Under the pieces are notes generated by a model that worked only from the letters and a program-made list of their open reading frames with translations, was not told where the DNA came from and ran no database searches. A stretch of DNA of 63,462 nucleotides, filler included, from Kipferlia bialata (Eukaryota): the NCBI GenBank assembly GCA_003568945.1. It is 3 parts of 3 records of this genome, joined end to end, with 100 filler letters (N's around TTAATTAATTAA, not from the genome) between each part and the next. Parts side by side here need not be neighbours in the genome. Positions count along the whole stretch, not along the records: positions 28,997 to 49,220 come from BDIP01000022.1; 2 more parts are not named here. One strand, written 5' to 3'. Position 1 is the stretch's first letter; every line of letters begins with the position of its first letter. Positions 12,577 through 63,462 of the stretch are shown in pieces. The position numbers and the translations under genes were made by a program.

Positions 12577-14141
12577 TTAGGCGGTCCAGGAGTCAAATCC
12601 GAAGGGCATGCCGGTCTCCTCCTCAATGCGGAGCATCTGGTTGAGCTTGGCAGTCCTCTCAGACCTGCAGGGGGCGCCGGTCTTGATCTGGCCAGTGCCA
12701 AGGCCGCACACAAGGTCGGCGATGAACACGTCCTCGGTCTCTCCGGACCTGTGGGAAACCATGACGGACCAGTCGTCGGACATGGCGAGGAGGGTGGCCT
12801 CGATGGCGCCGGTGACGGTACCGACCTGGTTCACCTTGAGGAGGAGGGAGTTGCAGGCCTTCTTGTTGATGGCGTCCTGGACGCGCTCAGCCTGGGACAC
12901 GGTAAGGTCGTCTCCAACGATCTGGGTGGGGAGGCCAGCGGCCTTGACCTTGGCAAGGAGCACAGCGAAGGACTCGAAGTCGTTCTCGTCGAATGGGTCC
13001 TCGATGGAGATGATGGGGAACTCGCGGCACCACTCCATGTACATGTCAGCCATCTCGGCTCCAGAGATCCAGTTGGCCTCCTCGCCCTTGAAGTTGAGGT
13101 TGTACATCTTGGTCTCCTTGTTGTAGAACTCAGAGGCGGCGGTGTCCATGCAGATACCGACCTTGCCCTCGTATCCGGCGACCTTGACGGCCTCCATGAT
13201 GACCTCGAGGGGGGCACGGGGGTTGTTGATGGGGGGGGCAAAGCCACCCTCGTCACCGACAGAGGTGGAGCCGATTCCGTAGGCCTTCTTGAGGATGGAC
13301 TTGAGGTGGTGGTACACCTCAGAGCCCATGCGCATGGCCTCAGCGAAGTCCTTGGCACCGAAGGGAGCAATCATGTACTCCTGGGGGGCGAGGGCGTTAC
13401 CGGCGTGCTTGCCTCCGTTGATGATGTTCATGCAGGGCACGGGGGTGCGCATGACGTCAGTGCGGCCAGAGAGGGCACCGAGGTGGGCGTAGAGGGGCTT
13501 GCCGAGGGCAGCGGCTCCAGCCCTGGCGACGGCCATGGAGATGGGGAGGGCGGCGTTGGCACCGTAGTTGGAGAAGTGGGGGGTTCCGTCGGTCTCAAGG
13601 AGCTTGGCGTCGATAGCCTTCTGGTCGGTCACGTCCATGCCCATAACAGCGGGTCCGAAGACCTCCTCGATGTTCTTGATGGCCTTGAACACGGACTTTC
13701 CGTGCCACTGGGAGGTTCCGTCACGGAGCTCGAGGGCCTCGTGCTCTCCAGTGGAGGCACCAGAGGGGCAAGCAGCGCGGAACATGCCATCCTTGGTGGT
13801 GATGTCCACCTCAGTGGTGGGGTTTCCACGGGAGTCGTAGATCTGACGGGCCTTGATGGCTGAGGTGAGTCGGTGAAACTGTAGACGATACCAAAGAGAA
13901 AGTGGTAACCAATGGGAAGATCAAAGGTGAAAAAGTAGTTTAAATGACGGAATGTGGACACAGGACGACTAGAGTACGAAATATATAGCCACACTGTAAC
14001 GGTAGTAGAAGGAAATATCAACAAACTCGAACTCGGTACTACGCAGTAGAATCCGACTATATCATAGATCTACTACATGTCACTGTATATATATGAGGCT
14101 GTCTATGAGGTTGAAGTAGCCGTACACTGGATGGTGCTCAT
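12577..14141 (-). CDS. ENO: Enolase, 432 aa, 2 exons (14141-14126, 13859-12577)
   Basis: [61 protein letters not shown] and KTGAPCRSER. 266-nt GT-AG intron; strong codon bias. Confidence 0.98.
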
Positions 14142-14434: not shown

Positions 14435-21346
<6,912 letters not shown>

Positions 21347-23296: not shown

Positions 23297-23778
23297 TCAA
23301 GTACAGATATCCGACACGAATCCAACAAGCTCCCAATAGGGTTCCATCAGAGCTTGTCGGAGCTCTAGGGCCTCATGCTCTACAGTGGAGTCACCAGAGG
23401 GGCAAGCAGCACGGAACATGCCATCCTTGGTGGTGATGTCCACGTCGGTGGTGGGTTTTCCACGGGAGTCGTAGATCTGACGGGCCTTGATAGCTGAGGT
23501 GAGCTGGAACTGTAGACGGAGTCGATGAATTAATTGGAAAATGAGTTACGAGTGGTTGAAAAAGGAATCGCACAGGAATCAACCGCACAGTGGTCAGAAT
23601 AACATAATTATGCTGACAAAGGAAGATTATGTATGTGCTGGGGAACGTAAAGAGTGACTTGTAATCGCTTCTTCACTCGCTCCCTATATGTTTAGTCATT
23701 ACATTACTGCGTCATCCAGGGTCTGTTAGAGTCTGTCATAGTCTACATATCACTAGTCTTACCGATGATTGTAGACAT
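23297..23778 (-). pseudogene. Truncated 5' duplicate of enolase (promoter, exon 1, intron and about 45 codons of exon 2)
   Basis: Spliced [54 protein letters not shown] then diverges ([19 protein letters not shown]). Same intron position and phase as enolase (269 vs 266 nt). Confidence 0.9.
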
Positions 23779-28896: not shown

Positions 28897-28996
28897 NNNN
28901 NNNNNNNNNNNNNNNNNNNNNNNNNNNNNNNNNNNNNNNNTTAATTAATTAANNNNNNNNNNNNNNNNNNNNNNNNNNNNNNNNNNNNNNNNNNNN
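28897..28996. other. Scaffold gap with artificial TTAATTAATTAA spacer
   Basis: N run with a six-frame-stop linker, flanked by poly-C. Confidence 0.97.
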
Positions 28997-29128
28997 TTTC
29001 CCTCCCTCCCCCCCCCCCCCCCCCCCCCCACCCATCTCTAAGTGAGATGGTCTCATTACCCCTCTATCCCCCCAGAGTATCTCAGGTATGTCTCTCTCAC
29101 TCTCTCACCCCCCCCCCTCACCCCCCAG

Positions 29129-31834
29129 AGTATCTCTGCCGTTGCAGCCACCAGAGGCATCCCATACAGTGAGGCAGAGCGGTTGCTGGCAGGTACACAC
29201 ACTCTCTCTCTCTCCAGCCACCCCTCTCTATATCCTCTATTCGTATTCATATCCTGTACTTCACAACTCTCTTTATATATATATATACACACTCTTACCC
29301 CCCAGGCCTCTTCACCTCCCTGGGTGCCAGGTGCGTGCTGTCCGGTGCCACCTTCCAGGCCATGAGTGCATATCTAGAGGCAGACAGGTTCATAGCAGAG
29401 GCCGGAAAGACAAAGTGAGTGGAGACCGTATATACATACCTAGTACATGCACTCCCTTGACTCCCTAGCTTACCCCTAGGCTGCCAGTTGTTGTCTCCCT
29501 GTGCCCCGGTGAGGTTGTATACGCCACCAAGACCAAGAGGAGTCTGCTGCCATACATGAGTGACGTGCCCAGGTACACACATTCACACACACACACCTTC
29601 ATGTATTCAATACGATATGACATGTATGAATGCAGACCATGCCCCCCCTCTCTGTGTATACCCTCACCCCAGCCAGCAGTCTGTGGCTGGCCACTACATC
29701 AAGGCAGGGCTGGTCCCTGGGTGCACAAGCCACATGTCCCTGCAGCCGTGCTTTGACAGGTATATATATATATACACTCACACATATGGATACTATATAT
29801 CATACCCCCCCCCCCTTACCCCCCCAGGAAGCTCGAGGCTGCTGACCCTGCCAATGTGTATGGGTCTACACCCCTGACCGACTTCACCCTATCCACAACT
29901 GAGGCACTGGGACTCATTCAGGTATTCATACAGACACCTATATGTGTGTATGGTGTACTACTCTACTCTTTATGCTGCTCCTCACCACCCAGGAGAGGAC
30001 CGAGGGTGATGCATCCATCCCACCCTGTGACACTGTGGCTGTGGTAGAGGGGGGACAGGCAGAGATGGGCAGCGGGAACAGGTGGGTAGACAGATACTCT
30101 ATTGTATACGAACACTATCCCTCTCTCCCCCAAAATACGATTGTGTGTTTTCATCTGTACATTCATAACCCCCCCCCTCACCCCCAGCATGGGTGGGTAT
30201 GGCGACATGCTGGCTGCCGTCCTGTCCCTCAGGGGCTGGGTGCAGGAGGGGGGCATGGGGGAGTGGCAGAAGGGCAGGAACATGCACTGGCTCGTCAGGT
30301 ATTCATCAGTAGCTATATACACATATATGAATAGTAATGATCTGGCTAGTCAGGTACAAGTATGTCCATGTAACTCTCTCTGTGTTCATACACACACACA
30401 CACAAATATATACATATTTCTCACCGGCTAGGCACGTGTCTCTGACCCCTGACTGTCCCCTAGTCCAGACACTCGGCACAGACACACTCACCCTGGCTAG
30501 GTACATAGATATGTATATGCACTAAATTATATACAGTATGTATGGGTTGGTGTGACCGTCCTTTCTTGGCACAGACACACTCACACTGGCTAGGTATGGT
30601 ACTATATATACAATATACATATATAAGATATGTAGGTAGATATGTGTCATTGCGTGTGTCCTTTCTCTCACCCCCAGGGTCTCCTCCTTCAAGAACACTG
30701 TTAACCTGACCAACGCACTCAAGAGGAAGGAGAAGATACACATGGTGGAGCTAGGTACATACAGCTATTCACTGTACATTCACACACTACATCTCTCTCT
30801 CTATATATATTTCTATTTTCTTACCCCCAGGTGCCTGTCCAGGGGGATGCATCAATGGAGGTGCCCAGCTGGCCCCCGAGAGAGAGAGGGAGTATGACCT
30901 CAGGACACTCAAGGTATATGTGAGAAGAGCATCACTGCATACTCTATATGTATGTGTGTGTATGCCCCTCACCCCCAGGTTGCAGGTGAGGTCCTTGCCG
31001 AGAGGTTTGGGTCAGGCACCGAGGACCAGGACACCTTGGACAGGGCTCTGGCAGAGGGGGCTAGGTATATAGTCTATGAATATATACATATATATATATA
31101 TAGAGAGAGAGAGTAGGACAGTCTAGACAGGGCACTGGCAGAGGGGCAAGGTGGGTGTATATGTATATTGTAGTATATATATATATATATATATATATAC
31201 ATAGAGAGAGAGAGAGAGAGAGTAGGACAGTCTAGACAGGGCATTGGCAGAGGGGAAAGGTGGGTGTATATGTATATTGTAGTATATATATATATATATA
31301 TATATACATAGAGAGAGAGAGAGAGAGAGAGCAGGACACCTTGGACAGGGCACTGGCAGAGGGGGCTAGGTATGGTTCCAATTGTTATACAAGACAGGGT
31401 CACTACAGCAGTATACTCTCTCCCTTCCCCATCCTCACCCAGGTCTGTCATTGACCGTGTGTGCATCATACTCTCTCTCTCCCTCTCTCTCTCTCTCCCT
31501 CTCTCTCTCACCCCAGGTCTGTCATTGACAGGGTGTGCACCGGTCTCAAGGTGGATGCCTCTGCCCTCAGAGTATCCCATGAGTCCAGGAGGGTGCTGTC
31601 CCCAGACGCAGTGGCAGCAGGGTGAGTGGTAGAATGTACATATGCTATATACATATATGGCAAGGTGATTATGTAAATTCATATATTCCTCTCTGCAATA
31701 TCCCCCCCTCACCCCCCGTAAGACTGGGTGAGTGATGATATATATACCGTTATGAGTTCCTCTCTGCTACTATCCTCACCCTCACCCCCAGTAAGACTGG
31801 TGTGCAGGTCAGTCTGGCAGACCTCCAGTGGTAG
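29129..31834 (+). CDS. NAR1: NAR1/NARFL/CIAO3 ([FeFe]-hydrogenase-like CIA factor); 5' end lost in the gap
   Basis: Spliced motifs SLCPGEVVYATK, LLPYMSDVPSQQ, LQPCFDRKLEA, DFTLSTTE, MGGY, SFKNTVNL and VELGACPGGCINGGAQ; ends ...ADLQW* (terminal Trp). Confidence 0.88.
31029..31372 (+). repeat. Four copies of a NAR1 exon end plus donor (GGACA..GACAGGGC..TGGCAGAGGGG..AG|GT)
   Basis: Copies at about 31029, 31115, 31225 and 31334, separated by TA/GA microsatellite. Confidence 0.92.
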
Positions 31835-32093
31835 AGACATTACCGTGACTGGAGGGTAGATGGTGATGATCCCCCCATCAAATGGGTTTAGACTACCGGA
31901 GTAAGGGGACACCAACAGGAATAGGCGGCAGGTGTATAGGGCGCTCCTGAGTCTGACATCCGAAACTGTTGGGCACACATAGTGGTATTTGTCAGTCTGT
32001 GTTGTTTGCACTGTGATGAATAGAACCCAAGTGGTATCAATAAGCCTAATACGTTGACGACCAAGGATACATTGAATGTGAGTAACCACTAAT

Positions 32094-35000
32094 CTATTGA
32101 TGCCTGCTGCTATCCGTGGGCATTGACGGTATTGTCCCCATGACACCCAGATAGGCTGGGTCGTACTTGAACACAACGGTGGCGTAGTCTATCTGGAAGT
32201 TGTACATGTACAGGCCTAGAGAATGAGAGAGGGAGTGAGGGAGGAAGAGAGCGAGAGAGAGAGAGACACAACGGTGACATAGTCTATCTGGAAGTTGTAC
32301 ATGTACAGGCCTAGAGGTGAGGTAGAGGTAGAAACCTCTATAACGATGAGCTGACTGGAAGTGTATAATAACACCCACCTCCGTGTGTGTGGAGGGAGTC
32401 CTGCACCCATGGCGCTATGCCATAGGCACCTAGTACCATGAGAGCCTGGGGGTCAGTGGTTCACATACATGTACAGCGATATATCCAGTCTGTTGTGTTC
32501 ATACACTAGCATTGCATACCTGCTGTATGAGCATGTCCCCCTCTGGTGCCTCATACACCCCACCCTGTCTGGATGCATACTCCACCCCATACAGAGACAT
32601 GTCCATGTCCACCCACACATTGGAGTTGTACACAGCATGGGCTGCAAACTAAAGTGAGCCGCAAACTGACACAACGAGGCTAATGCATGGCTGATACACA
32701 AGAATCGAGGAGAAAGAGAGAATATTGTGGGAGTTGTACACAGCATGGGCCGCAAACTAAGGTGAGGAAAGGGGGAGAGGTAGTGTAACTGACATTGGGA
32801 GTGATGCATTGTCGTACTGTGTATATGTTGCACTGAGCATGGCCAGAGTATATATCAGATATACAGGTCAAATGCATTAGGCAGACTCTAGCGAGTTGAA
32901 GTGACATATAGTATAGGAGACACACTTACCGTATATGTTGCATTAAACATGACAAGGTCCTGTGGCCCGCCCTCTATGCCCACTGAGATGGGGCCAGAGA
33001 AGGACACCTTGAGACCGGAGGGCAGGATGTCAACCTAGGGCATGAGAGAGTGGGTTGGTACTTCGGGTAATACTCAGTATCTACTGTGGTCTGGTATGCC
33101 TAAAGGGAGAAGTAAATAGTAGGTATAACGATAGCAGCGGAACGCAAAGAGGCTCCTGCATACCTCTGGGTAGGTGTACCCTGGTGTCTCAATATCATAG
33201 TATACACAAACACATACAAGACAGCATATACGACTCCCTGTACCTCTGGGTAAGTGTACCCCGGTGTCTCTGGTGTGTATGGGATGGACACACTCAGGGG
33301 CTGGTCTGGGGTGGGGTGGTATACATACTCAGGGACAATGATTCACGGTGGTGAAAACCACTCTACCGAAATAATAGTATAGACATTGGGAATAGAGTAC
33401 CTGGATACTATCCAGTGGATAGTCCTCGTATCACAGTACCTATCGAATCATCGGATACATGTATTGAATACCTGGATAGTCTTCATATAGCTGTGGCACG
33501 CTGCTCTTGTAGTATGACGTGGTCATCAATGGTTGGAAGGTGGAGGGGACAGAGGAGGGGGTGACGGTGGCCTGAGGGTGAGGGTCTTGAGTAAAAGAGA
33601 GAGAGAGAGAGAGAGAGACCATACACACAGTATGTACCTCCAGGTACCCCTGCTGTGCATGTGCGTTGAACATGGACTCTATCACTACGGGGCTGGTCAG
33701 CTGGGGTGAGGATACAGAGAGTGGCAGAGAGTAGTAGGGTGTGTATGTGCGTGATATATGTACCTGTTGATAGTCTGCATCCCCTATAGGGTCATACCCC
33801 TCTCTCTCTCTCTCCATCTATCTCTCTACTAATATATCCATATATACACTCTATACCTGCTGGTAGTCTGCGTTCCCTATCAGACTGGGCATGGGGACAG
33901 GTGTCCTGTGGGGCAGGATACCCCGGTGGGAGGGGGACCAGATGGTGCCTGGGGGTAGAAGGGAATGATATACTACTCTCCATATGCAGTACACTACTAG
34001 TACTACTCTACTATGATATGACCAAACAATCATGACCAGCCGGTGCCTGGGGGTAGCATTGGAGAGGCATGCTACCATATGTATGTAGCACTACATGCCT
34101 CACACCTATCTCTGGCATTGTGAACGTGCTGTCTGATGTACTCAGCATCCCAGGGGGCACCCTGATGTCCACTATGAAGCCACTGCCCACACCCGCTATG
34201 CCGCAGTTCAGAGAGTCTGGGGGTGAGGAGGGGGTGCAAGGATATGGACATGTATTTCAGAGAGTCTGGGGTTAAACAATACCAATCAACAACAACCACT
34301 CGAGCGTGGAAATGCCAGTTTCACAGCACCTACCCATACTCTCCATGACAGTCTCCACCACTTGATATAGAGCACACACCGTCTATGGAGTATACATACA
34401 ATACACTTACACACCTAGACTCTCCATGACCGTCTCCACCACCTCATAGAGGGCATCGGGTAGATAGAGGTTGAGCACATCAATGATGACACCCTTCATG
34501 TAAGGAAACAGGTACCCGTCTGTATAGAGTGGGAGATAGAGAGCTAGCGAGCGAGAGTAGAGACTGGGTACACCGATGATGACAGCATATATATGGATGT
34601 TTAGGAGAAAGATGCAGATGAGTATCGCTATAGAGGAAGGGGGTCAGAGTGTTCGTACCTTGAATACATCGAATATCTCGTTGAACAGAGCCCCGTCCCC
34701 TACAAGGGTCAGGTCGATGTCCTGTAGGGTTAGGGAGGAGATGAGAAGATGAGTAACAGTGAGAAGAAACCGTCACATGAGACGTCATACCTCTTTGGTG
34801 AGTGTACTGACATACTTGTAAATGAACATAGCATACATACCTCTATGGTGAGGTCGAACTGGTCCAGGTTGACGTTGAAGTTGTCATACTGGTTCACAGA
34901 CCTGGGGTAAAGCATAGTAGTAGTGCGTATATGTATACATACATATATATACCACTACTTTCAAGGAATGTTGACAGACCTGGGGTGAGGGGGATATCCG

Positions 35001-36551
35001 CCATGTAGTTATCTGCACTTACACAGATACATTAGCACAAAGGTGTATATACCACCACTCCATACATGTATGCCCTCATGTCTGTCTGACTGAGCCTCAC
35101 ACTGACAGTGCCTCTCTCTCTCTCTCTCTCTCTCCATATACATACATATATACATATTACCACCACTCACATGTATGCCCTCATGTCTGTCTGACTGAGC
35201 CTCACACTGATGGTGCCGGTCCCCTCTGCACTGGGATAGGGCCAAAAGGTGTCTACCACCTCCCAGGCAAAGGACATGTACACAGACAGACCCTCCACGT
35301 CTAGAGTGAGCCAGAACAGCATGAGCAGATACGTAACATTATATATATATATGACACGTAAACAGACAGACCCTCCACATCTGGGGTCAAGGAGTGTACA
35401 CAGAGAGATACTACAGTGTATATACACATGTATATATGTGTGTGTGCCCCAGCAAAGGACATGAGCATACATACAGACCCTCCACGTCTGGAGTAAGAGG
35501 GCACACCATACACAGGTATACTACACTACAGAGTATAGATATGTTATAAAGGGTCGTTATGATACACATATATACACATATAAACAACAAAGACACCTAT
35601 AGTACACTGTCCACTCACCCAACAGCATCTCCGGGACCCCTGTCTGTGTCTCTGGCACTGTCTCTGCTGAGAAGGCATCGTACTGGATGTCGGTCACAGT
35701 CATCTGGGTCAGGGCATAGCTGAGGGTTAGAGGAAGGGGAGAAACCCAGAGAGAGAGAGAGATAGAATGATAAGACATCTGGGTCAGGGCACAGCTGGGG
35801 TGAGAAGGGGAGGTATATACACAGGGGAGAGAGAGAGAGAGAGAGAGAGATGTAGAGACAGAGTACAGCTCCCCACCTCATGTCTGCCACCAGTAGGTTA
35901 TCCTCCCCGGTGATGTCAGGCAGGGTCTGGCGTGGGATGGAGAGAGGGATGGTTACAGTGTGGACAGTAACAGGAATACTGTTTATAGAAAGAGAGAGTG
36001 CGTGTGTACATATATACCTGCCCCACTGCGTATGTCATGACATACTTCACAGCCAGGGAGAAGAACCGGTTGAGTCCGTCCTCTGAGGTGGGGGTAGGAG
36101 AGAGAGAGAGAGAAGGAGATATATAGTGAATCGTGTACAGTCTCGGCAACACTTCTCTACAGGTATGTACATACGACAATATACTGTTTGGACCTTGGAT
36201 CTTGTTAGCGGACCAAGAAGAGAGGAAGATAAAATCACAAAGTGACATACGAATATATCAGTGCAGCGAAGACATACCCAATCATAGTCACTAACACACT
36301 CAGAATCCCATCTCTACACGTATACATGCCTACCCACCTGTGAATGTCAGTATGGAGCCAATATCACTGACTGTAGGGAGTGGTCCGTCGACATGGCATG
36401 GCTCTGTCTCTCCATCTCTCTCTCTCTCCTTCCCCCAGCTACCAAGTGACTCTGCTTCGACCACCGGTACATCATACAGAGGAGATCCCAACGCAGAGAG
36501 TACCATTGGACATGCTAGAACCAGCAACACACATATACACAGCTGATGCAT
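32094..36551 (-). CDS. Secreted BPI/LBP-like (TULIP superfamily) lipid-binding protein, many exons
   Basis: Hydrophobic signal peptide (MHQLCICVLLVLACPMVLSA); ILTFTEDGLNRF..TLPDITG resembles the BPI N-terminal ITQKGLDY..IPD.SG; beta-rich alternating strands; C-terminal VVFKYDPAYLGV. Confidence 0.68.
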
Positions 36552-36748
36552 AGCTAGTCACACCTAGCGAGAAATGGGGGACACAATTGTGCCTGGTCAT
36601 CGTTAAACCCTTCAGTGAAAAACTGCCTGTACCCTTTTGAAAAACGAGACTGAGTACACTACGAACCATGCCCTCCATATCAGCTTGAGTAGGCTAGTCT
36701 CAGCCCATAGGGTGTGATAGAGTGTAGAGACACAGTCTGTGTGTTGCC

Positions 36749-37250
36749 ATGAGCATCAACTTCAAATGGAGTGACCTACAGGGGAGCACGGCGATGCTGA
36801 AGGACTTCATACACCAGGTATGGGTGTCTATCCGGATATACATAGTACCATTCCAAAGAGTATACACATACTGGTCCACTCTCTGGTAACTGGTTGTTTT
36901 GAGAGGAGTGTGAATATGGTGGTTGGTATGTCCCTCTCTCATATATGTGTGTGTATCAAGGCACGTACTCATATCCAGTGGATTTGTATACTGTCCCTAA
37001 CCTATCTAGGCCACTGTGGCTAGTAGTGATCAGTATTTGTGTTTGTATTGACTCTGGTAGTGTTTATATGGTCCCACATACCTATCGTGCCCGTATATAC
37101 CTATTTCACCCCTCACTCTCAGGCCACTGTTGCCATCAATGACCAGGGTGTGTTCCCAGGGGGGGTGTCCCTAGACCTCCTAGAGTTGGGGTCTCCTCCC
37201 CAGTTCAACCTGAAGAGTCTGGATTGCATGTCAGAGGGTATGGGTCTCTG

Positions 37251-37285
<35 letters not shown>

Positions 37286-37489
37286 GTATGTATGCCTGTA
37301 TTCCCATTCCCTCATTCTAGGCACTGCGTGTGTGTCCTTCATGCCCTTTCACACACACACACACACACTCTCTCTCTCGTTCTACCGTATACATACATAC
37401 TAAGTATCCCTCACCCCAGGCACCGTGGGTGTCTCCTTCACGCTCTCTCTCACTCTCTTCCTCTCTCTTCCCTCACCCCAGGCACCGTG

Positions 37490-37521
<32 letters not shown>

Positions 37522-38612
37522 CCCCCCCCTAATTCTAGGCACTGTGGGCGTCTCCTTCACGCTCCGTGCCTCTGATCCAGTCAAGGTCAAGCTGAGTGCA
37601 GACGTCAACACTAGCCCATTTGCAGCGCATGACAGGTACAGCATGCATTATGTATAGATATTGTGGTGTATAGATAGCTCACCCCCCTCACACCCAAGGC
37701 CGAGGCAGCGTGCGTATGACTTCATTTATGCATACACATATATATAAGAATAAATTTTTATAAATGTATGTATGTATTGGAGATATATGTATAAATATTG
37801 CTTATACTAGGCCTAGGCAGCGTGCGTATGACTTCATGAATGTGGGCCTCGCCGCTGCCCCCGCTGTGATGCCCCTCTCCATCACCCTGTCCCACCTGTC
37901 ATTCGATGTGTCGGGGTCCATCACAGTGGATGCAGGTATTGTGCACTATCATATGAAATATACTATCGTATGGAGTTGATCTTAATTGTGTTTGTGTATG
38001 GTACCTCTGTAACACACGTTCCCTGTCTCTATCTCTATATTTGTAGTTATCAACTATATATATCACACCCCATAGTACTAACTCCCACAGTGTGCATGTT
38101 CCGTCTACCCCATCTCCCTCTCTCTCTCTCTCTCTGTGTATATATCTACTACTATATATATTCCCTTTCTCTTGAGTCTGCCTGTTCCGTGTCCCCCATC
38201 TCCCTTTCTCTCTCTCTGTGTGTGTATATATATACTACTATATATATATTCCCTTACTTCAGAGTCTGCCTGTTCCGTGTCCCCCATCTCCCTGGTCGAG
38301 GTCTTTGCACCCTTGATCTTTGGCCAACAGGGAGACCAGAAGGCCCCAGGTCAGTCTCTCTCTCTTCCTCTCTCTCTCTCTCTCCCTCTCTCTCTCTCTA
38401 TATATATATGTCTCTCTGTCTCTCTCTCTCTCTTACCCTCAGCTGGCAAGGGAGTGTTTGAGATCCTCAACGATGGGTATATATCCAACCTGGAGTTTGA
38501 GACGTCCTTCGACCACTACCCCCTCTTCACACCCATGCTCAGAAGGGTCGTGGTGCCCATACTCAAGAGGGTGCTCTACAGGGCCCTGTCCAGGGTCGAG
38601 TTTGACATCTAG
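36749..38612 (+). CDS. SMP-domain protein, Mdm34/Mmm2-like (ERMES), 220 aa, 6 exons
   Basis: Exons 36749-36817, 37123-37237, 37539-37635, 37811-37935, 38263-38349 and 38443-38612 are in frame. MSINFKW, LELGSPPQF, LSADVNTSPF, GLAAAPAVMPLSITLS and LNDGYISNLEFETSFD parallel Mdm34 MSF.FNW, L.FG..PP, L.TKVQANPL, A..PL.VP..L.LS and F.NDPL.S..VSSTFD. Confidence 0.75.
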
Positions 38613-39253
38613 GGCATGGCTGGGTGTACTACTACCTTGGGCCAAGGCGTCGAGTTTGATACCGAGGGGTGTTCTGAAGCTATGGGGTTGCTGTAGGGTA
38701 GTTGGAGGGATGATGGTAGGAGACCTAGCCCACTAGTGCTAGTGGTACTAGGGGTCCTCGTGGGGCTAAAGGGTGTTAGAGGACAAGGGTTGCAGGTGGA
38801 TGGTGCAATCCGACTTTGCTTTGTGTATGTTGTGTTGTTATGTTTGCAGAATCGTTCATTATTGAGTAATATTATGTTAATATAAGCGGAGGTGTTCATG
38901 TATTAGTTTCTTGGTATGTATACAGACAAGGGAACTGACTGTCAAACACTCACTCACGAAATCCATTGTAGCCACCCTAGACTGGCATACACCACACACA
39001 TACCATAGGAACACACTAATACACACTGGTATAGATACAGGCATCGCTAGACACCCTCATACCATCATACAACAACATCGCCAACCACACACGCACACCC
39101 TCTTCTTCGGTTAGAACATCCAAACATACACACACCTACTCTCCCACTCATACAGACTCTCTCTCTCTCTCTCTTGAAAAACCCCCTTGGCCAAAACAAT
39201 GCACTTACACCCCTACAAACAGAGGCAGACAGGGGATACTACACCCTTAATGT

Positions 39254-47980: not shown

Positions 47981-49769
47981 ATGGGTACCTGTAGCTCTGT
48001 AAATCGTGACCCGGCAACAGACATTGAACATGCTGGTGATGCTGTTCCAATACCACTGACGCAGCCTGAAAACAGCAGGTATGGTGCATACAACATGTCC
48101 AAAGATATGGTCACTCACCCTTCTCAATATTGGTGTTCAGATACTCTCTGGTTGTATACCTCTTGTACCAAGGTCTCATATTATCCTGGTCCCCCCCCCT
48201 CCCCATCCTTTTTTTGCCCCCCCCCCCCCCCCCCCCTTTTTTAAATTATTCCCCCCCCCCCCCCCCCCCCCCTTTCTTTGAATTGATGTCTCTCTCCCCT
48301 CTTCTCATACCAGACTATGTTGACTACACCGCAGTGCTCTCCCTCCTGCCTGTACACAGGACAGCCATCTTAGAGGCATCACGCATTCCAGTACACACAG
48401 GGGTATGTTGGATTATGTGCATATACTAGTTGCATAATCATGTACGTATAAGTGGTATAGGACAGCAATCCTCGAGGCATCACGCATTCCAGTACACACA
48501 GGGGTATGTGTCCATTGTTACACAGACATAACTTATAGTTGTTGTATATATATATACATATATATATAGTGTCCATAGGACAGCCATTCTAGAGGCATCC
48601 AGAATTCCAGTACACACAGGGGTATGTAACAGATGTAGTAAATGTGAGATGTATATATACAGCATCCTTTTCCTCACCCTTAGGGCGTTGTGACGTCTGT
48701 GTCTGAGATTAAGGGTCTAGAGAGGACAGGGGCTGACACAAGGGTGGCCACAGAGGCAGAGAGAGACAGGGTATGCATACAAGTAGGATATTTACATATT
48801 GATACGTCTTTACATACTGTGTTGGTTTAGTCACCTATATATTGATGTGTGGCCACGGAGGAAGAGAGAGAGAGGCGAGGGTTTGTATACAGGTGATTTT
48901 ACAAAACAGTCTGACTTATCATGGACTCATTCACACTACCACCCTCGCACCATACCCTCTTTAGTGTCACACCATCATTATCTCCCTCTGTGTATATATC
49001 TGTATATCTCTATATGTGTGTACATTTCTTACATCTAGGTGTGCCCTGTACAGTGTCACACCTTCCTCTCTCTGTCTCTCTCTGTCTCTCTCTATATATA
49101 TTCTCACTACTAGGTCTGCCAGTGTGCCCTGTACAGTGTCACATCTTCCTTCTCTCTCTCTCTCCCTCTCTCTCTCTCTTTTCTAATATCTAGGTCTGCC
49201 AGTGTGCCCTGTACAGTGTCNNNNNNNNNNNNNNNNNNNNNNNNNNNNNNNNNNNNNNNNNNNNTTAATTAATTAANNNNNNNNNNNNNNNNNNNNNNNN
49301 NNNNNNNNNNNNNNNNNNNNAATACATATGTAGACTGATAACCCCCCCCCCCCCCTCCCCCTCCAGCTCTCTCTCTCTCTCGCTCCCATTTCGTAAACTT
49401 GAGTGTGAAGGGTCCCTCTCGCCTATCTCACCCTAGCACCAACAGTGCAGCTGCCGTGCAGTTTGGCAAGAGGGTGGTGCTCTTTGATGCACCCGAGGGC
49501 ATCCAGCACTCCCTCATGCACTACAAGGTACAATACTGATACTGATACTGATACACCTATTTTAATATATGTATTGTCTCTCATGCACTGCAAGGTACTA
49601 CCCCCCTGCTACCCCCCCCCCCCTCCTTACAGTTACGCCCCTCTCTCGTGTGTTACAGTGTCTTTCTTTTTCAACGTCTAACATGCAGCCTCCCACACAT
49701 CTTAATACACTTAATATCGCTCTCCCTTCCTATTATGTCTCCGTGGGCAGGATCTCCCCCATCTCTCCC

Positions 49770-49808
<39 letters not shown>

Positions 49809-51902
49809 TCTCCCTCTCAGGTCTCCCTGGGCAAGATCTCCACCATCTTTGTGTCCCATCTTCACATGGACCATGTGGCTGGACTAGTGCCACTGCTCAC
49901 ATCCATGAACACTAGGTATAGTAGATATGTGTCTGTTTGAGTATATACAATCAGGTCACGTCCAAGAATTCAGTGTATTGTATCAGTATCTGAACATATT
50001 CATGCCACATGTATATCACCCCCCAGGGCGCTGCACACCAGAGTCATTTGGATACATGTCTATCTGAAAGTATACATACATTGAGTTGTCAGTTCATATA
50101 TATTGTATATATCGTGTGTGCATTCCCACATAACATTAGGGCCCTGCACACCAGGGTCACTGTGATAGGACCCAAGGGTATCAAGGAACTGATGGACGTG
50201 TACTGCAGACTCACCTTCTCAGACTTTGCTCCATCCCTGCAGGTGCGTACGTATACACACATATCTATATTACATAATGAAATATCTTCCTGAACAGAGT
50301 TTCTGGTGGCATTTCCATCCTATCCTAGGGTCCTAGAGATGTTAGAGATGGTATGTAACACTATACTCTTCTCACCCCTAGGTCCTTGAGATGGAGGAGG
50401 GCGTGTCTCTGACCCACCCCATATCTGAGTCCTGCACCCTGACCACACACACCCTCACCCACGCCGTGCCCTCCTTTGCAGCAGTGCTCAGGGTTAAGGG
50501 TAGAGCAGCCATAGACATAGAGAGGTATATTCCCATATTGCGGTGTGGTTCACTACTATATACTGTATACATGCATGTCTTCGGGGTCAGGCGCAGGGCA
50601 GCCATAGACATAGAGAGGTATATTCACCCATAGCAGTGTGGTTCACTGCTATATACTGTATTCATGCATATCCTCGTGGTCAGGGACAGGGCAGCCATAG
50701 ACATAGAGAGGATCCGACTTACGTATGACTCATTGTACTTGGAGTGTATCTATGTTCAATTCACATATACAGTCAAGTGTATGAATAGTCTGTTAACAAG
50801 GTATCCCTCACTCCTTCATATATATGTATATGCATAAGTATGGTCTCTTTGTCTTGTCCCTCACCCCTTAGGCTCAAGACAGCCGGGTTCCCTATAGGCC
50901 CATTGTGTGGGGACCTCATCAAGTGAGTGTACATCTATGTGGTTACAATGCTATGATCCAGTGCTGTTGTAACAATGTATTGTAGGATTGTCTTTGCCAT
51001 ACATGTGTATTTCTACATACATTCACATACCGTCTGTCCTCACTTTCAGGCTGGGCAGGGTGACTGTTAACGGCAGAGAGTACATACACTCGGACTACAC
51101 GCAGACCAACAGGGACAGAAAGGTACATAGGCGCTCACTGTATACCCTTACTGTATGTTACCCTGTTTCTGACTCCTCAGGTTGTCTTCTGCGGTGACTG
51201 CTGCTGGGACACAGCCGTGCCAGAGCACAGGTATACATCATAACACATATATTCACATACATATGAGGATTGGCAAATCCGTTATAGATATAGGTTGAAT
51301 CCATGTATATACTATCCTGTTGTTTCTGCTTCTGACCCCAGGGCTGCCCTTGTACAGGATGCCATGGACTGTGACCTCTTGATACACGAGGCAACGTTCG
51401 GAAGGTTAGCATGTACACATATACACACTATCAGTGTTTTCTTTCGTGACCCCAGGGACATGGCTGCCAGGGCCCCTGGTATGGGCCACTCCACCCCTAG
51501 TATGGCAGGGTGTGCATCCAAGGCAATGCAGGCCAGGTGCATGGTCATGACGCACATCAGCAACAGGTATGTGTCTGTTGTAGTGAATATATGCAAGTAT
51601 GATACTACTACATTTCTATTATTGCCTACCTTCTGACCACCAGATACCTCCAGGGTCTCGAGAGGGATGTACCAGCAGAGCCAACATCTGAAGGAGGAGA
51701 CAACACGAAGTACTCAAAGTACGAGCCCCTCTTCCTGTCTGGCAAATGCTTCGACGCAGTGTTTGTGACAAGTGACACAGTCCAACACGGTTGTGGCATA
51801 CCAGGCGACTCCCCCTTGTCACAGTTCATACCCGATGCACTGGAGGCAGGGGCACAGGCAGTGTGTCTGGCCAGGGCAGGGCTCAAGGTAGCATTCTCAT
51901 AA
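47981..51902 (+). CDS. tRNase Z, short form (ELAC1-like); linkage of the exons 5' of about 49100 is uncertain
   Basis: SASVP..TNSA, LFDAPEGIQ, IFVSHLHMDHVAGL (HxHxDH), IGPKG, THAVPSF, GP exosite GFPIGP, FCGD, DLLIHEATF, GHST and MTHISNRY. Confidence 0.9.
49221..49320. other. Scaffold gap with artificial TTAATTAATTAA spacer
   Basis: N run with the same linker as 28897-28996. Confidence 0.97.
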
Positions 51903-54579: not shown

Positions 54580-57500
54580 GTACCTGGGGGAGGTGGGAAG
54601 GGGGCCCTCCTTCTGAGTGCAGACTGGGTGCTGAAGACTGACAGCTTGGATGGTCTAGTGGGTAGGTCTGAGGTGGTGGCTGCGGCCTGGGTCTGACGCA
54701 CCACGGCATCGTACACAACCTTGGTTAAAGGGACTCTACACACTACACTATATATATATATTTGCAATAGACAGCGTACCTGGTGAGCGATGTACTTTGC
54801 CAGGTCCCCCCTGTCTGCACCGAGTGACCCCTCGCCCTGGGCCTTGTTGAGGACGGCAAAGAGGAAGTTACCTACCAGCTGGGGGAGGAGCTTGTACCTG
54901 GGGTCAATGGGAGAATATGCAATTTCTGGCAAGTCAGTTGTACTCACCTGTGGAACACGACTCCGTTCAGCAGCACTGCCGGGAAGCATGGGCCATAGTC
55001 CCCCCCATTGGTATGTGCCAGGTTTGTCAACAGCATGTATGCGGCCTCCTCTGCGTCTGTGCACTTTGGCACAGAGAGAGGGGGTAGCAGCATGGAGGCA
55101 GGGGAGAGAGAGGCCTCCCAGGGTGCGTCCCTCAGCTTGTCGACTAGGTACGACACGAGCGAGGCGTCAGGCCTAGCAGATATCTCAGCCACGGCCCTGG
55201 CGACATAGGAGGTGGGGGCATCATGGCACGTGGCAACGATCCAGTGCAGCCTGGGGTGGGTATACACACTATAATAGATATACTATCTGGTATGCCCCCA
55301 CCTTCTGAGTAGTCTCCTGGACACCCCCTCCGCCCCTGCTCCCCCATGGGTACTGCCCCTATCCAGAGCACTCTCACCCACTAGGGCATCAGCCCACAGC
55401 GTCTGCAGCACCCACCCGTACTGCCCCAGGCTGTACTTGGAGGGGTGGGTCTCATCGCACTCGGGACTGGTCTGCACACACAGTCTGGTGAGGACTAGCA
55501 ATATATCGATCAACTCGGTGGTCAGGGAGGGAGAGGGGGCAAAGCCTAGCCTGCACAGTCCGATGGTGGGGTGGCCGAGTCCACTCTCCCTTGGGTCGGC
55601 ACTGCTGACCAAGGGCCTGAAGGCTGACACCACCTCTGCGCATATCCTGATGGCTGATACCCTAGCAGGTGCAGCCAGCATAGGGAGGCATGACACCACA
55701 CCCCTGACTATGGGCACACACAGGGGGGGGCACACCATGCCTATGGACCTGGCCACCTCGGTTGATACCTGCAGGGCATGCACATACTCAGTGGGGGTCT
55801 GGATGGGTAGGTAGGGGGCAGCGGTGCGAAGGACAGACAAGGGCTGGGCTAGGGCCGCTGAGACGGTGAGGGGCTCGGAGTCGTCGTTGGCCTCATCCTC
55901 ATCCAGACCGGCCTGGGGTCAGGGACATAGTATACAGTACAGTTATAATGAATATATATACTTACCTGTGCCAGGAAGCATGAGAGTGCGTCAGTCGTGT
56001 GCTGTCTGATGTGTGGGTCAGTGTCCATCAGTAGCACCAAGGCCACAGCTAGTACCATCCCTAACTGATCCAGGGACCCATAGACGGCACTCAGCTTGTC
56101 CTCATTAGACATGTCGACACTCTCTGCCACTGACCTGTCAACACCCTCTAGCAGCACCTGTGTTGAGAAATATATATGTATATCTAGAGTAGTCATAATA
56201 CATACATGTATATTAGGAGCACCTGCCCTGCATCGGGTGCATCCACCAGGAATCAAAATGTATATCTAGAGTAGCCATGATATATATATGTATACTATTA
56301 TAATATTAGGAGCACCTGCCCTGCATCGGGTGCATCCACCAGGAACCCAAAGATGGCATCGATGTGGGCAAGGGCCAGGAGGAGAGGGGTGGTGGTGTCC
56401 TGGGGGTAGAGGCCATATAGAGCACATCATCACAACTCTCTCTCTATATATATAACAAATATTATACCTTTGGGGGGTACAGCAACAGAGCATAACAGCT
56501 ATATACATACAGGCCATACCTTTGCCACGACTGGCTCATCACAACTATACATACATATACATATATTTAGTATATATATGAAGTATATATCTCTACCTTT
56601 GACACCACTGGCTCTGGCGCAGGGTGGCAGGGCAGAGACATCATGATGACAACAGGACGGACATCCTGGGGTCAGAGAGTGACTTAGAGTTATATATATG
56701 TATATGAATATATATATACCTGCTCCTCGTCGAGTGTGTGTGTGTGGCAGGGGTATGCCGCATATGTCACAGACTGTACGGGTACTCTGTTGGCACTCAC
56801 TAGCAGGGTGCCGCAGAATGCCTTCAACAGCTGGGTGCGGGCGGCACCTGCGTTGTCGAGGGCAGCAGAGAGTACCTTAGGTGAAGACGTGGGAGAGATA
56901 CACACACATATACATATACACCCTACACCCACCTTTGTAACCCCTGGCAGTGTGTGTGGCCCATGCTTGAGGAAGGGCAGGCAGAAGGGCACAATGGCGT
57001 CACTGAGGGAGAGACCCCTGCAGTCTGCATACACCAGTGCCTCAACAGCAGTTAGTAGAGTACACTCTGCCCAGCAGTTGGGTGCAATGTCCCCACTGAT
57101 CAGAGGCTGTTTGGGTAAGTGGTCGCAGGTGATGCGCAGTCTCTTGAAGAGAGGCCACAGGGAGGGGCAGAGGTCGGGGCTTGTCACAAACAGCCTCACA
57201 CTGTTGAACACCCCCTCCTGTGACATGCCGCCCATGGGGTCTGTGCTGAAGGGGGTGGGGGAGTCTGCCATAAGTGGGTTTGGCACTGCTCTAGTGGGTG
57301 CAGGGGAGATGGGGCTGTCAGGCTGCGACCTCTGTCTAGAGGGGGGCGTACGGGGTGTACGGGTAGGGGGCAGATCGGCGCTGTCCGAGAGGCTGGGCTC
57401 GTCCAGGTCCCCACTCCTCTCTCCCTCTCTCTCCTCCCCCTCAGGCTCTCTGGCCTCCTCTCCCTCTCCATCCATTGGCATGTCAGGCCCCCTCAGCACA

Positions 57501-61000: not shown

Positions 61001-61941
61001 ATAGATCATTCATATTACATCACACATAAGACTATATATATCATACATATGACTATATGTACACAGCACTGCCACTGGAAAATACAAGAGTATTTCTGAG
61101 TGAAATACCATAGTATAGAAGTAGTATAGTGCATATAGTCCTGCACCTGCCCCAGAATGGGTCCCCGTCTGTCATTGCATCCACACTAGGGGGGATGATG
61201 GCCTCAAACTGCTTGGCCAGCACACGGCACAGCTCCTGGGGTTACATCTGGATATATATATATGTATATATACATGACTAATATGTATAGAGAGAGGGAA
61301 TGCTTCGTTAGCACACGGCACAGCTCCTGGGGTAAGGCATCCACACAAATACCTACAACACACACAATAGCAACTCTTGGATTATACAATGCGGTCAGTA
61401 AGTACATATATATACTATAAGAGTGGTCAAAGTGCACCTGTCTGAGCACCCCCCTCTGCACCCTGGGTATACAGACTCTATATACTATATATATATACTA
61501 TAGAATATACCCCCCTACCTGTCTGAGCACCCACCTCTGCACCCTAGGTATACATACTAAATACACTATATATATATACTATAGAATATACCCCCCTACC
61601 TGTCTGAGGACCCCCCTCTGCACCCTAGGAATATATACTCTATCTACTATATATATATATATATATACACTATATATACTATTTTATATATATACCCCTA
61701 CCTGTCTGAGCACCCCCCTCTGCACCCTGGGCAGCAGAGACAGCACAGCATCAAGGACCTGGGGGGTGAGGGAGGAGTAGGTTGGTACAATATCACTATA
61801 CAATATACACTGAGTGATCCACACCCTTTGTATACCTTGATAGTGGCTGGTGTCTGTGGGCTGTCCCCCAGACCCAGACCCAGGTCAGTCAGGGAGGAGG
61901 CATACGTGGCATAGTCTCTGGGGGTTAGCATAGAGAGAGAG

Positions 61942-61982
<41 letters not shown>

Positions 61983-63462
61983 GAATAGTTATACCCTACT
62001 ATGGATTAGTGAGGGAGGAGGCATACGTCGCATAGTCTCTAGTGGTGAGTATGTATATATATAGTACATTGTATATAACACATATACCCATACCTGCAGT
62101 CTGTCTTCCTCATGTCCTGGATGAATGTGGCATGCATATATAGTATATACAGTATATAGTATATAGCACATGTATCTATACCTGCAGTCTGTCTTCCTCA
62201 TGTCCTGGATGAACGTGACATGCATTATATAGTGTATATAGTATATAGTATATATACATGCCCATACCTGCAGTCTGTCTTCCTCATGTCCTGGATGAAT
62301 GTGGCATGCAGTGACACCACCCTATTAAGGTGGGGTGTGTGTGTGGAGAGCAGACCCAGTGTTCTAGAGGCAGCCTCCCTCACGTCCAGAGGGTAGTTGT
62401 AGGCCAGCTTGCCCCACAGCATCTCAATCAGGGTGTCGGGGACAGCGGATAGAACAGAGGCCTGGGATAAGGAGTGCTACTATACATACATACATACTAC
62501 ACTAAGCTGTGGTCAAAGGGCAAGAAGGATGCCTAGTTCTAGGACAGATAAGGGATGTTCACAAACTCTCTCTGTTAACCTCAATATCTGTATACTGATA
62601 CTCAATATCTGTATAGTGATACTATATATACTACAAGACCCACCTTGTCTGTGTGGTCCAGACTCCCATTGACCACCCCGTCCATCAGTGTGAACAGGGT
62701 ATGGGTCAGCCAGTAGTCCACACTCTGGCCCTCCCTGGGGGCCATGGCCTCGGCCTGGGGGGTCAATACACTCATATATAGAGAGCCAATATATATATAT
62801 ATATCTATATAACCATGACTAGGGGGCCATGGCCTCGGCCTGGGGGGTCAATACATCACCATATGATACAAAATACTTATACAAACATATACAGAGAGAG
62901 ATTCTACTGGAGGGTACTCCCTGGGAGCCATGGCCTCGGCCTGGGGTGTTAATGTACAATAAGATTGAAAGAAAGTAAGAGAGACTGAGACAGAGAAAGG
63001 GTGACAGAATATCTCATACCTTCTCCAGGTCAGCCTGTGCTGGGCGTCTCTCATCTGAGGACACGGGGAACTCTGGGGGTAAGGCAATGGGAGAGTAGAT
63101 AGTATACTAGGCGAAGTATTATACATAACAATATATATATATATATATATACCTGATGGCAGGGCATCACCCAGGGCTAGCACCCTATTGATGGTGTACA
63201 CCACCCCATCTGGGAGAGGGGACCCCAGGGCCACAGAGACCAGCGCAGACTGGAGGGTGAAGAGAGCAGACTCGCACAGGGAGACTGTGTAGTCGGGCAG
63301 ACAGTTGTCGGTGGGGAAGGGGAAGGCGAGGTAGTCAGGGACGGAGAGCAGCTTGGCACGGCGGATGAGGACATCCTGGATCTGGTTGCAGGTGGAACTG
63401 GGGGTCAGAACGTAAAGGGGAGGGGGGAAGGGGGGGGGGGGGGGGGATGGGTGGGGGGGATT
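52139..63462 (-). CDS. Very large HEAT/ARM-repeat-like protein; 5' end beyond the window
   Basis: Dozens of minus-strand exons with CCCCAG acceptors. HEAT-like segments include LLMDTDPHIRQHTTDAL, YPLDVREAASRTLGLL and SASDITVVNSAVTALMQF. Stop TAG at 52141-52139. The family could not be assigned. Confidence 0.65.
61436..61730 (-). repeat. Four copies of a HEAT-gene exon end plus donor (+ strand ACCTGTCTGAGCACCCCCTCTGCACCCT)
   Basis: Copies at about 61436, 61517, 61598 and 61700, separated by TA-rich filler. Confidence 0.92.

What the first reader, a model, noticed from the sequence alone, without database searches (positions are those of the whole stretch)
37318..37565. Intact decoy acceptors immediately followed by GT/GC: candidate recursive ('ratchet') splicing or strict exon definition
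Seen in sequence: the Mdm34-like intron 2 has three upstream acceptor echoes (TTCTAG|GCACTG, CACCCCAG|GCACCG twice) before the real TTCTAG|GCACTG at 37538, and two of them match the consensus better than the real site. Similar AG|GT or AG|GC echoes occur at 31442, 34981(-), 49037/49112, 54522(-), 59302(-) and 62841/62942(-). Inference: using a decoy would destroy the frame unless it regenerates a donor (recursive splicing) or is skipped by exon definition, which is unexpected in a short-intron genome. Caveat: exons often start with G anyway, and several echoes lack GT/GC.
Basis: partly seen in the sequence, partly recalled or inferred. Interest (0 to 1): 0.7.

Follow-up and report, generated by a model that had tools for sequence, protein, structure and literature searches.

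The report
Exon-edge echoes copied from other alleles
In this single-celled eukaryote about a third of the introns in the right half of the window carry short copies of the neighbouring exon's edge, splice signal included, which the RNA that could be examined mostly skips; they differ from the working exon almost only at silent positions, so they were likely copied from another allele during DNA repair rather than serving stepwise (recursive) splicing.

Summary
The three decoy acceptors in intron 2 of the Mdm34-like gene are real (AG at 37320, 37419, 37481; true site 37538) and two outscore the true site. They are not ratchet points. They belong to a window-wide class of exon-edge copies: 28 acceptor echoes and 31 donor echoes in 40 of 113 introns, period 49-121 nt. 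The GT/GC after the AG is the copied exon start (20 of 21 identical to it), is not enriched (10/17 vs 39/96, p=0.19) and makes a poor donor. Spliced RNA contigs use the exon-proximal sites, even past an in-frame, stronger decoy. Unexpected result: echoes differ from the working exon mainly at synonymous sites (0-fold/4-fold ratio 0.19, CI 0.12-0.31; a dead copy gives 0.5 or more). So both versions evolved as coding sequence: the echo likely came from a diverged allele, by one-sided homologous repair closed by end-joining in the non-alignable intron. Echo units make up a third of intron DNA there. The skipping fits exon definition, not yet proven. A protein from the window matches a Kipferlia bialata record. 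Not found in print in eight searches.

The parts
36749..38612 (+). Mdm34-like SMP-domain gene, six exons (36749-36817, 37123-37237, 37539-37635, 37811-37935, 38263-38349, 38443-38612), 220 aa; four of five introns hold acceptor echoes
   Evidence: open frame; identical to P0001; Mdm34_N fold; echoes
37238..37538 (+). intron 2, 301 nt; 83 nt without its three echo units
   Evidence: RNA contig record 5 leaves exactly 97 nt for exon 3 between exon 2 and exon 4
37307..37344 (+). echo 1 (decoy AG 37319-20, offset 218, frameshift): oldest copy, 24 nt exon-like, non-synonymous changes (TACVSFM vs TVGVSFT)
37406..37445 (+). echo 2 (decoy AG 37418-19, offset 119, frameshift): 26 nt exon-like, two changes, both synonymous (ACC/ACT, GGT/GGC)
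37468..37497 (+). echo 3 (decoy AG 37480-81, offset 57, in frame, no stop, strongest acceptor score 14.3), same two synonymous changes, runs into a CT tract; not seen used in RNA contigs
37525..37564 (+). true acceptor (AG 37537-38) and start of exon 3
37636..37810 (+). intron 3 with a much stronger decoy acceptor at 37699 (10.9 vs -0.4) that is skipped
   Evidence: joint 37633-37809
31065..31516 (+). intron with three donor echoes and one AG|GT acceptor echo (31443) around a 73-nt core
   Evidence: true acceptor 31517 used
31622..31791 (+). whole-intron duplication with a 9-nt in-frame exon piece between the halves; first acceptor decayed to CG
   Evidence: (spacer z=3.5); joint
32649..32929 (-). 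intron with one acceptor and one donor echo, spanned without differences by an unspliced 340-nt contig (physical check; partial retention)
   Evidence: record 3
35720..35876 (-). intron with an in-frame, stronger decoy acceptor at 35794; extra RNA cover inside it (decoy use or retention)
48403..48683 (+). two donor echoes (48504, 48622), both scoring above the true donor
50525..50871 (+). two donor echoes, period 93, intron part still homologous
61236..62267 (-). two introns with arrays of donor echoes (3 and 2) and one acceptor echo each
62755..63019 (-). intron with two AG|GC acceptor echoes (62940, 62839)

Best explanation
The decoys are leftover copies of exon edges, made at donors and acceptors alike and mostly skipped in the RNA examined, and they likely arise when a DNA break near an exon edge is repaired from a diverged allele and closed out of register. 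Inferred steps: the end with the long exon arm invades the homologue and copies across the splice site and about 40-90 nt into the homologue's intron; the other end has only 9-52 nt of mismatched exon before a non-alignable intron, fails to re-anneal and is joined by end-joining; the old exon edge with its splice site is left inside the intron as the echo. Repeats of this, some from the sister or a close allele, give arrays. The spliceosome likely pairs sites across the short exon, so the exon-proximal site wins, and echoes that break this are likely purged. The GT/GC after the decoy AG is the copied exon start.
For: Shown: 28 acceptor and 31 donor echoes in 40 of 113 introns, null under 1; 39 of 49 introns over 130 nt have one, 1 of 64 shorter ones; removing the units leaves a median of 77 nt, the same as echo-free introns. 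Echo against true exon: 31 of 747 0-fold sites and 43 of 200 4-fold sites differ, ratio 0.19, bootstrap 0.12-0.31, p=4e-5 against 0.5 (47 echoes, best one per intron side); 0.21 for interior sites only, 0.18 stratified by base and CpG, and a dead-copy simulation with the same detector gives mean 0.59, minimum 0.34 in 300 runs; the signal vanishes in shifted frames; the 25 least diverged echoes differ at 3 of 422 0-fold and 19 of 115 4-fold sites; echo-echo differences are also third-position (18/106 vs 5/107 and 7/112). The intron part of the unit is detectably homologous to its counterpart in only 12 of 47, and those carry fewer synonymous differences (9/65 vs 54/201, p=0.04). The flank resembles intron, not the other exon, so the template was unspliced. 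RNA: 7 of the 15 joints displayed cross echo-bearing introns at the exon-proximal sites; depth in 22 of 30 bins matches the exon models within 1000 depth x nt; 14 of 19 echo-bearing introns in the laid stretch show only the canonical form. 12 of 21 intact decoy acceptors and 13 of 25 intact decoy donors score as high as or above the true site. No echo borders an exon over 194 nt among the 113 introns (3.3 expected, p=0.013). From papers: metamonads lack canonical NHEJ and fornicates lack Rad51A and have two Dmc1 (PMC8516963 section 8); Dmc1 stabilises mismatched joints (PMC6719624 abstract).
Against: No second allele was seen: the RNA contigs list no other letters and two metagenome scans found no relative, so the donor allele is inferred. 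Among the 18 echoes without amino-acid change the link between spacer homology and synonymous difference is not significant (p=0.15), and spacer-homologous echoes still show synonymous bias. Later conversion of the true exon edge by other alleles gives the same signal. Exon definition: the long-exon test is weakened by clustering of echoes (35 runs, p<1e-4), and a donor echo at 3817 follows a 374-nt exon in a gene whose parse was not clean. Four echo-bearing introns show alternative forms (30299-30431, 35720-35876, 32649-32929, possibly 32216-32378), and intron 1 of the Mdm34-like gene has no cover. Contigs drop rare forms and decay of frameshifted RNA could hide decoy use. Outside 29221-38040 the true sites rest on open frames from my own GT-only gene finder plus hand curation.
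Confidence: 0.55

Rival explanations
1. Ordinary same-allele tandem duplication (slippage or sister repair) makes an identical echo; afterwards the true exon edge is converted by other alleles while the echo is not. It also needs diverged alleles and exchange between them, but at a later step.
For: 12 of 47 units still have a homologous intron part and some arrays are clean tandem repeats; 13 of 47 echoes show no interior difference at 0- or 4-fold sites; synonymous bias also in spacer-homologous echoes.
Against: Several echoes with no amino-acid change have a spacer with no detectable homology (11 of 18); echoes in one array differ from each other at third positions; the upper limit of about 50 nt of exon is not explained.
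Confidence: 0.22
2. Dead copies from simple tandem duplication, with no second allele; the synonymous excess is an artefact or a mutation bias.
For: AG and GT of echoes are lost at the neutral rate (21/28 vs 0.83 expected; 25/31 vs 0.82); GC-to-AT changes outnumber the reverse at third positions 33 to 19.
Against: Ratio 0.19-0.21 lies below all 300 simulations (minimum 0.34) and holds within each base class.
Confidence: 0.08
3. Assembly artefact: two haplotypes joined in tandem across divergent introns.
For: Synonymous bias is what two haplotypes would show; echo clusters lie near the two scaffold gaps; only part of the echoes could be checked against reads.
Against: An unspliced 340-nt contig of run X1 spans one intron with two echoes without differences; no other letters are listed over the exons, so no second allele is evident in that run; arrays of three different copies and decayed copies with lost AG/GT and a stop. 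X1 may be the sample the window was assembled from.
Confidence: 0.08
4. Recursive splicing: the decoy AG is used first and the following GT/GC is reused as donor.
For: 13 of 21 intact decoys are followed by GT/GC; remaining pieces (49-218 nt) are long enough to splice; one GC donor exists in the window (15803); human recursive sites occur in introns down to 0.2 kb (PMC10156609 passages); mature RNA cannot tell the routes apart.
Against: No enrichment; dinucleotide copied from the exon in 20 of 21; regenerated donor scores equal those of ordinary exon starts (p=0.44) and do not improve over their own exon (5 up, 5 down); in intron 2 they score -3 to -5 against 5.3-5.5, and 0.5-2.1 even if GC is read as GT, against 7.8 for the real GC donor; a downstream donor to define an RS-exon in 3 of 28 only; 8 of 21 decoys cannot regenerate any donor; donor echoes unexplained.
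Confidence: 0.04
5. For the skipping step only: not cross-exon pairing but local context (enhancers deeper in the exon, CT/TA/CA tracts silencing the decoy) or decay of the wrong products. Confidence refers to this step alone.
For: Acceptor echoes often run into CT tracts (39% vs 12% of intron windows); alternative forms in four echo-bearing introns; 5'-most donor choice without competition is described for human F7 (PMC1557585 abstract).
Against: First-come choice explains donors but predicts the wrong acceptor; the in-frame decoy at 37482 cannot be hidden by a premature stop and shows no cover.
Confidence: 0.4

Closest known systems
Repair-mediated duplications by SDSA (Pace et al. 2009, PMC2671141; abstract seen)
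   Same: short, closely linked duplications attributed to strand-invasion repair, some copying splice sites
   Different: there about 1000 events in the human genome, up to 619 bp; here 59 in 34 kb, each centred on an exon edge, 49-121 nt apart, with the signature of a diverged coding template
Human F7 intron 7 minisatellite with 5' pseudo-sites (PMC1557585; abstract seen)
   Same: a repeat unit spans the exon-intron boundary; functional decoy donors stay silent and the exon-proximal one is used
   Different: one locus, donors only, identical 37-bp units; here both ends of introns, many genes, diverged copies; 5'-to-3' scanning cannot explain the acceptor choice
Recursive splicing / ratchet points (PMC8605326 and PMC10156609; passages seen)
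   Same: an intronic acceptor directly followed by G(T/C)
   Different: ratchet points have a strong, conserved donor and a cryptic exon with its own downstream donor, mostly in long introns; echoes have weak donors, decay neutrally and are exon-start copies
Intron birth by tandem genomic duplication (Hellsten et al. 2011, PMC3265369; abstract seen)
   Same: a duplication creates or multiplies splice signals; one whole-intron duplication with a 9-nt exon piece is seen (31622-31791)
   Different: here existing introns grow; a window-wide test for duplication-born introns was null

Membership tests
Recursive splice site (ratchet point) | acceptor directly followed by a consensus donor (YAG|GT) | tested here: not met
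   GT in 3 of 21 intact decoys, none with purine at +3; 2 of 21 reach the weakest real donor
Recursive splice site (ratchet point) | donor motif enriched or conserved beyond background | tested here: not met
   10/17 vs 39/96, p=0.19; 20 of 21 copy the exon start; AG lost at the neutral rate
Recursive splice site (ratchet point) | cryptic RS-exon with a downstream donor | tested here: not met
   donor-like site after 3 of 28 acceptor echoes, 1 of them with intact AG
Recursive splice site (ratchet point) | intermediates: donor-to-site junction reads, lariats, saw-tooth | not testable with these tools
   only assembled contigs of one run
Repair-mediated duplication (SDSA type) | short duplication close to its source | tested here: met
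   period 49-121 nt, median 91
Repair-mediated duplication (SDSA type) | genomic (unspliced) template | tested here: met
   flank resembles the true intron (6.5 vs 5.2; 5.0 vs 3.6 of 12), not the other exon (3.1 vs 3.3; 2.8 vs 2.9)
Repair-mediated duplication (SDSA type) | breakpoint microhomology or filler | tested here: inconclusive
   far ends often fall in CT or TA tracts but the donor sequence is unknown
Repair-mediated duplication (SDSA type) | empty site in a relative or second allele | not testable with these tools
   no whole genome held; no relative in two metagenome scans
Exon definition | exon-proximal site chosen over a stronger site that would give a shorter intron | tested here: met
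   introns 37238-37538, 37636-37810, 35301-35618
Exon definition | dependence on exon length | tested here: inconclusive
   0 echoes beside exons over 200 nt vs 3.3 expected, p=0.013; clustering and one counter-example
Exon definition | acceptor choice depends on the downstream donor | not testable with these tools
   needs mutagenesis
Splice-site minisatellite (F7 type) | near-identical head-to-tail units spanning the boundary | tested here: not met
   whole-unit homology in 12 of 47 only; a few arrays qualify

The most novel reading that the evidence does not exclude
Introns of this fornicate grow mainly by out-of-register repair from diverged alleles, so its introns hold thousands of fossil exon edges of other alleles: a record, readable from one genome, of inter-homologue recombination and of very high silent diversity (about 0.13 at 4-fold sites) in a lineage without known sex, tolerated because a reduced spliceosome defines exons although its introns are short.
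Probability: 0.4. Interest if true: 0.85.

Novelty: new variant of a known kind. Interest (0 to 1): 0.68.

Why it matters
First, short-intron protists are usually taken to splice by intron definition (my recall of the field); here stronger decoys that would give shorter introns are passed over at both ends, and the genome offers dozens of natural competition experiments per 30 kb. Second, the synonymous-only divergence turns intron junk into evidence for exchange between diverged alleles in a free-living fornicate that, by PMC8516963, repairs breaks without NHEJ or Rad51A. Third, it gives a concrete mechanism of intron growth: echo units are 5248 of 15754 intron bases in the right half, and their density changes from 1 of 46 to 40 of 113 introns along the window, which could map recombination. 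It also warns annotators that such decoys mislead gene finders.

Tried and rejected
No whole genome was held, so all counts are from this window. The run search listed one run, X1, RNA by guess; reads could be laid on 29221-38040 only, so echoes beyond 38 kb have no RNA check. Two metagenome scans found no relative. Pfam on single exons and on P0001 gave no family for the Mdm34-like gene. A self-trained gene finder drifted and was discarded; later models were restricted and hand-curated. Offsets are not a clear multiple of three (acceptors 5 of 21; donors 13 of 25, most with stops): no frame-keeping role. A cDNA template was rejected. Duplication-born introns window-wide: null. Microexon intermediates as the general route: rejected, 3 of 28 and 3 of 31. 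An annotation-free repeat scan found 1 hit touching 3578 intergenic bases, at a stop codon: too few to prove that duplications favour splice sites. Two-way conversion between echo and exon was rejected by reasoning: it does not lower the ratio below 0.5 while keeping 20% silent divergence. Rows dropped: two mis-registered donor copies in intron 31065-31516 from the site counts, that intron's donor side, one of 47 left-half introns with a wrong boundary; left-half genes at 21-25 kb and 27.8-28.5 kb were not annotated. Earlier findings: two look-ups, nothing. Eight paper searches showed no description of such echoes; subscription journals are largely outside that library and no supplements were read.

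Full report
Observation. The window is intron-rich eukaryotic DNA with two gap linkers (28897-28996, 49221-49320). The finding lies in intron 2 (37238-37538) of a six-exon gene that gives an open 220-aa frame. A search with its last exon returned one protein, P0001, identical to my parse and named by its source as a Kipferlia bialata hypothetical protein; its model matches Mdm34_N. The three decoy AGs are at 37320, 37419 and 37481, the true one at 37538; two score above the true site. Use of the first two shifts the frame; the third adds 57 nt in frame without a stop.

The class. I built gene models for 29-63 kb (eight genes, 113 GT-AG introns, all frames open; the finder allowed GT donors only). 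A scan for copies of each exon's start or end inside the adjacent intron found 28 acceptor echoes in 23 introns and 31 donor echoes in 24, 40 introns in all, against under 1 when exons are shuffled. An echo is 9-52 nt (median 27) of exon edge with its splice signal; copies lie 49-121 nt apart (median 91). 39 of 49 introns over 130 nt have one, 1 of 64 shorter ones; without the units the median is 77 nt, as in echo-free introns. Units make up 5248 of 15754 intron bases. Left of the first gap only 1 of 46 curated introns has an echo (p=2e-6; an annotation-free scan gives 4 hits there against 59), and echoes cluster along the right half.

RNA. One run, X1, holds spliced contigs. All 15 joints displayed are GT-AG on one strand or the other (7 more not shown, 7 dropped at repeats); 7 of them cross echo-bearing introns at the exon-proximal sites. 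Record 5 leaves exactly 97 nt between exon 2 and exon 4, so the true acceptor at 37539 is used (hand arithmetic on table 8). Depth predicted from my exons and the records' depths, with some record ends inferred, matches 22 of 30 bins within 1000 depth x nt. Of 19 echo-bearing introns in the stretch, 14 show only the canonical form, 4 show extra cover (30299-30431, 35720-35876, 32649-32929, perhaps 32216-32378) and 1 has no cover. At 32649-32929 an unspliced contig spans both echoes without differences, at about a third of the local depth. At 35720-35876 the decoy is in frame and stronger, and may be used. Contigs drop rare forms.

Recursive splicing. 49 of 113 true exons begin with GT or GC. 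After intact decoys 13 of 21 do, 20 of 21 repeat their own exon's first two bases, and introns with such decoys are not enriched (10/17 vs 39/96, p=0.19; p=0.12 with two short echoes added). Regenerated donors score like ordinary exon starts, 2 of 21 reach the weakest real donor, and no AG|GT decoy of the 21 has the +3 purine of 110 of 113 donors. One GC donor exists (15803) but it is otherwise a perfect donor. Published ratchet points have strong conserved donors and an RS-exon (PMC8605326, passages); short-intron cases exist in human (PMC10156609, passages). I rate this route at 0.04; intermediates could not be searched.

The unexpected signal. A dead copy should differ from its living source at 0-fold sites at least half as often as at 4-fold sites. 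Observed: 31/747 against 43/200, ratio 0.19 (0.12-0.31; p=4e-5). It holds for interior sites (0.21), within base classes (0.18) and against a simulation with the same detector (mean 0.59, minimum 0.34). In intron 2, echoes 2 and 3 differ from exon 3 by two synonymous changes only, while echo 1 has decayed. Echoes of one array differ from each other mainly at third positions. The amino-acid changes that do occur are no more conservative than chance (mean BLOSUM -0.32 vs -0.53) and AG/GT are lost at the neutral rate, as expected for later decay. So the two versions of the exon edge diverged while both were coding: about 0.13 at 4-fold sites before decay. The intron part of a unit matches its counterpart in only 12 of 47, and those have fewer silent differences (p=0.04 over all, p=0.15 among the youngest). 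The template was unspliced.

Mechanism (inferred). A break near an exon edge; the long arm invades a diverged homologue and copies across the splice site into its intron; the short arm, with under about 50 nt of mismatched exon before a non-alignable intron, is joined out of register; the old edge stays behind as the echo. This accounts for the symmetry of donors and acceptors, the limit on echo length, spacers of 38-90 nt (shorter than an intron) and the silent differences. It fits the repair kit reported for fornicates: no NHEJ, no Rad51A, two Dmc1 (PMC8516963, section 8 read), Dmc1 tolerating mismatches (PMC6719624, abstract). The main rival is same-allele duplication followed by conversion of the true edge; it also needs diverged alleles. 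No second allele was seen. Mis-assembly is unlikely but checked at one intron only.

Skipping (inferred). The exon-proximal site wins at both ends although 12 of 21 decoy acceptors and 13 of 25 decoy donors are as strong or stronger. First-come choice, described for the human F7 repeat (PMC1557585, abstract), explains donors only. Cross-exon pairing explains both, and no echo borders an exon over 194 nt among the 113 introns (p=0.013), but clustering and one counter-example weaken this; local enhancers, silencers and survivor bias are open.

Comparison and verdict. It works like repair-mediated duplication (PMC2671141, abstract) and like the F7 splice-site repeat; it fails the tests for ratchet points. 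The species' genome paper reports 124,912 introns, and the passages seen do not mention such copies (PMC5874029); eight searches found no description; supplements were not read. New variant of a known kind; interest 0.68; best explanation 0.55.

Noticed in passing
window 36610-37100 (-): An RNA contig has a 491-nt minus-strand intron here, so the 5' end of the minus-strand neighbour overlaps exon 2 of the Mdm34-like gene head to head; the Mdm34-like start exon lies inside that intron and had no contig cover.
   Followed up: partly
window 31791-32214: The 3' end of the highly covered plus-strand gene (Nar1-like by recalled motifs, untested) runs into the last exon of the convergent minus-strand gene (record 1).
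   Followed up: no
window 31622-31791 (+): Whole intron duplicated with a 9-nt in-frame exon piece and a donor between the halves; first acceptor now CG. Looks like a gained and lost microexon.
   Followed up: partly
window 29063-29140 (+): An acceptor echo directly followed by a good donor (29086); possible 10-nt microexon; the upstream exon is cut by the gap, frame unresolved.
   Followed up: partly
window 15803-15894 (+): GC-AG intron with an otherwise perfect donor, in a 20-exon Ski2-like helicase gene (14759-21345; Brr2/ASCC3 class; single cassette suggests MER3 by recall, untested).
   Followed up: partly
window 23297-23493 (-) and 12577-13859 (-): A truncated second copy of the enolase 5' end about 10 kb from the full gene.
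   Followed up: no
window 38593-38668 (+): An echo of the last codons and stop of the Mdm34-like gene 54 nt downstream, the only such repeat outside introns in the right half.
   Followed up: no
acceptors of the 113 introns: A branch-point-like YTVAY motif sits 7-9 nt from the 3' end (72 hits), like the fused branch point and acceptor of diplomonads (PMC6679479 passages).
   Followed up: partly
window 16784-16849 (+): Four 16-nt tandem copies of the branch-point motif without AG just before an acceptor.
   Followed up: no
window 56158-56315 (-): The intron's first bases resemble the next exon's first bases, as in an intron born by duplication; the window-wide test was null.
   Followed up: partly
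window 28897-28996 and 49221-49320: Gaps of 44 N, a 12-nt linker and 44 N; the second lies inside an RNase Z-like gene (Lactamase_B hit); echo density and intron microsatellite content are lower left of the first.
   Followed up: partly
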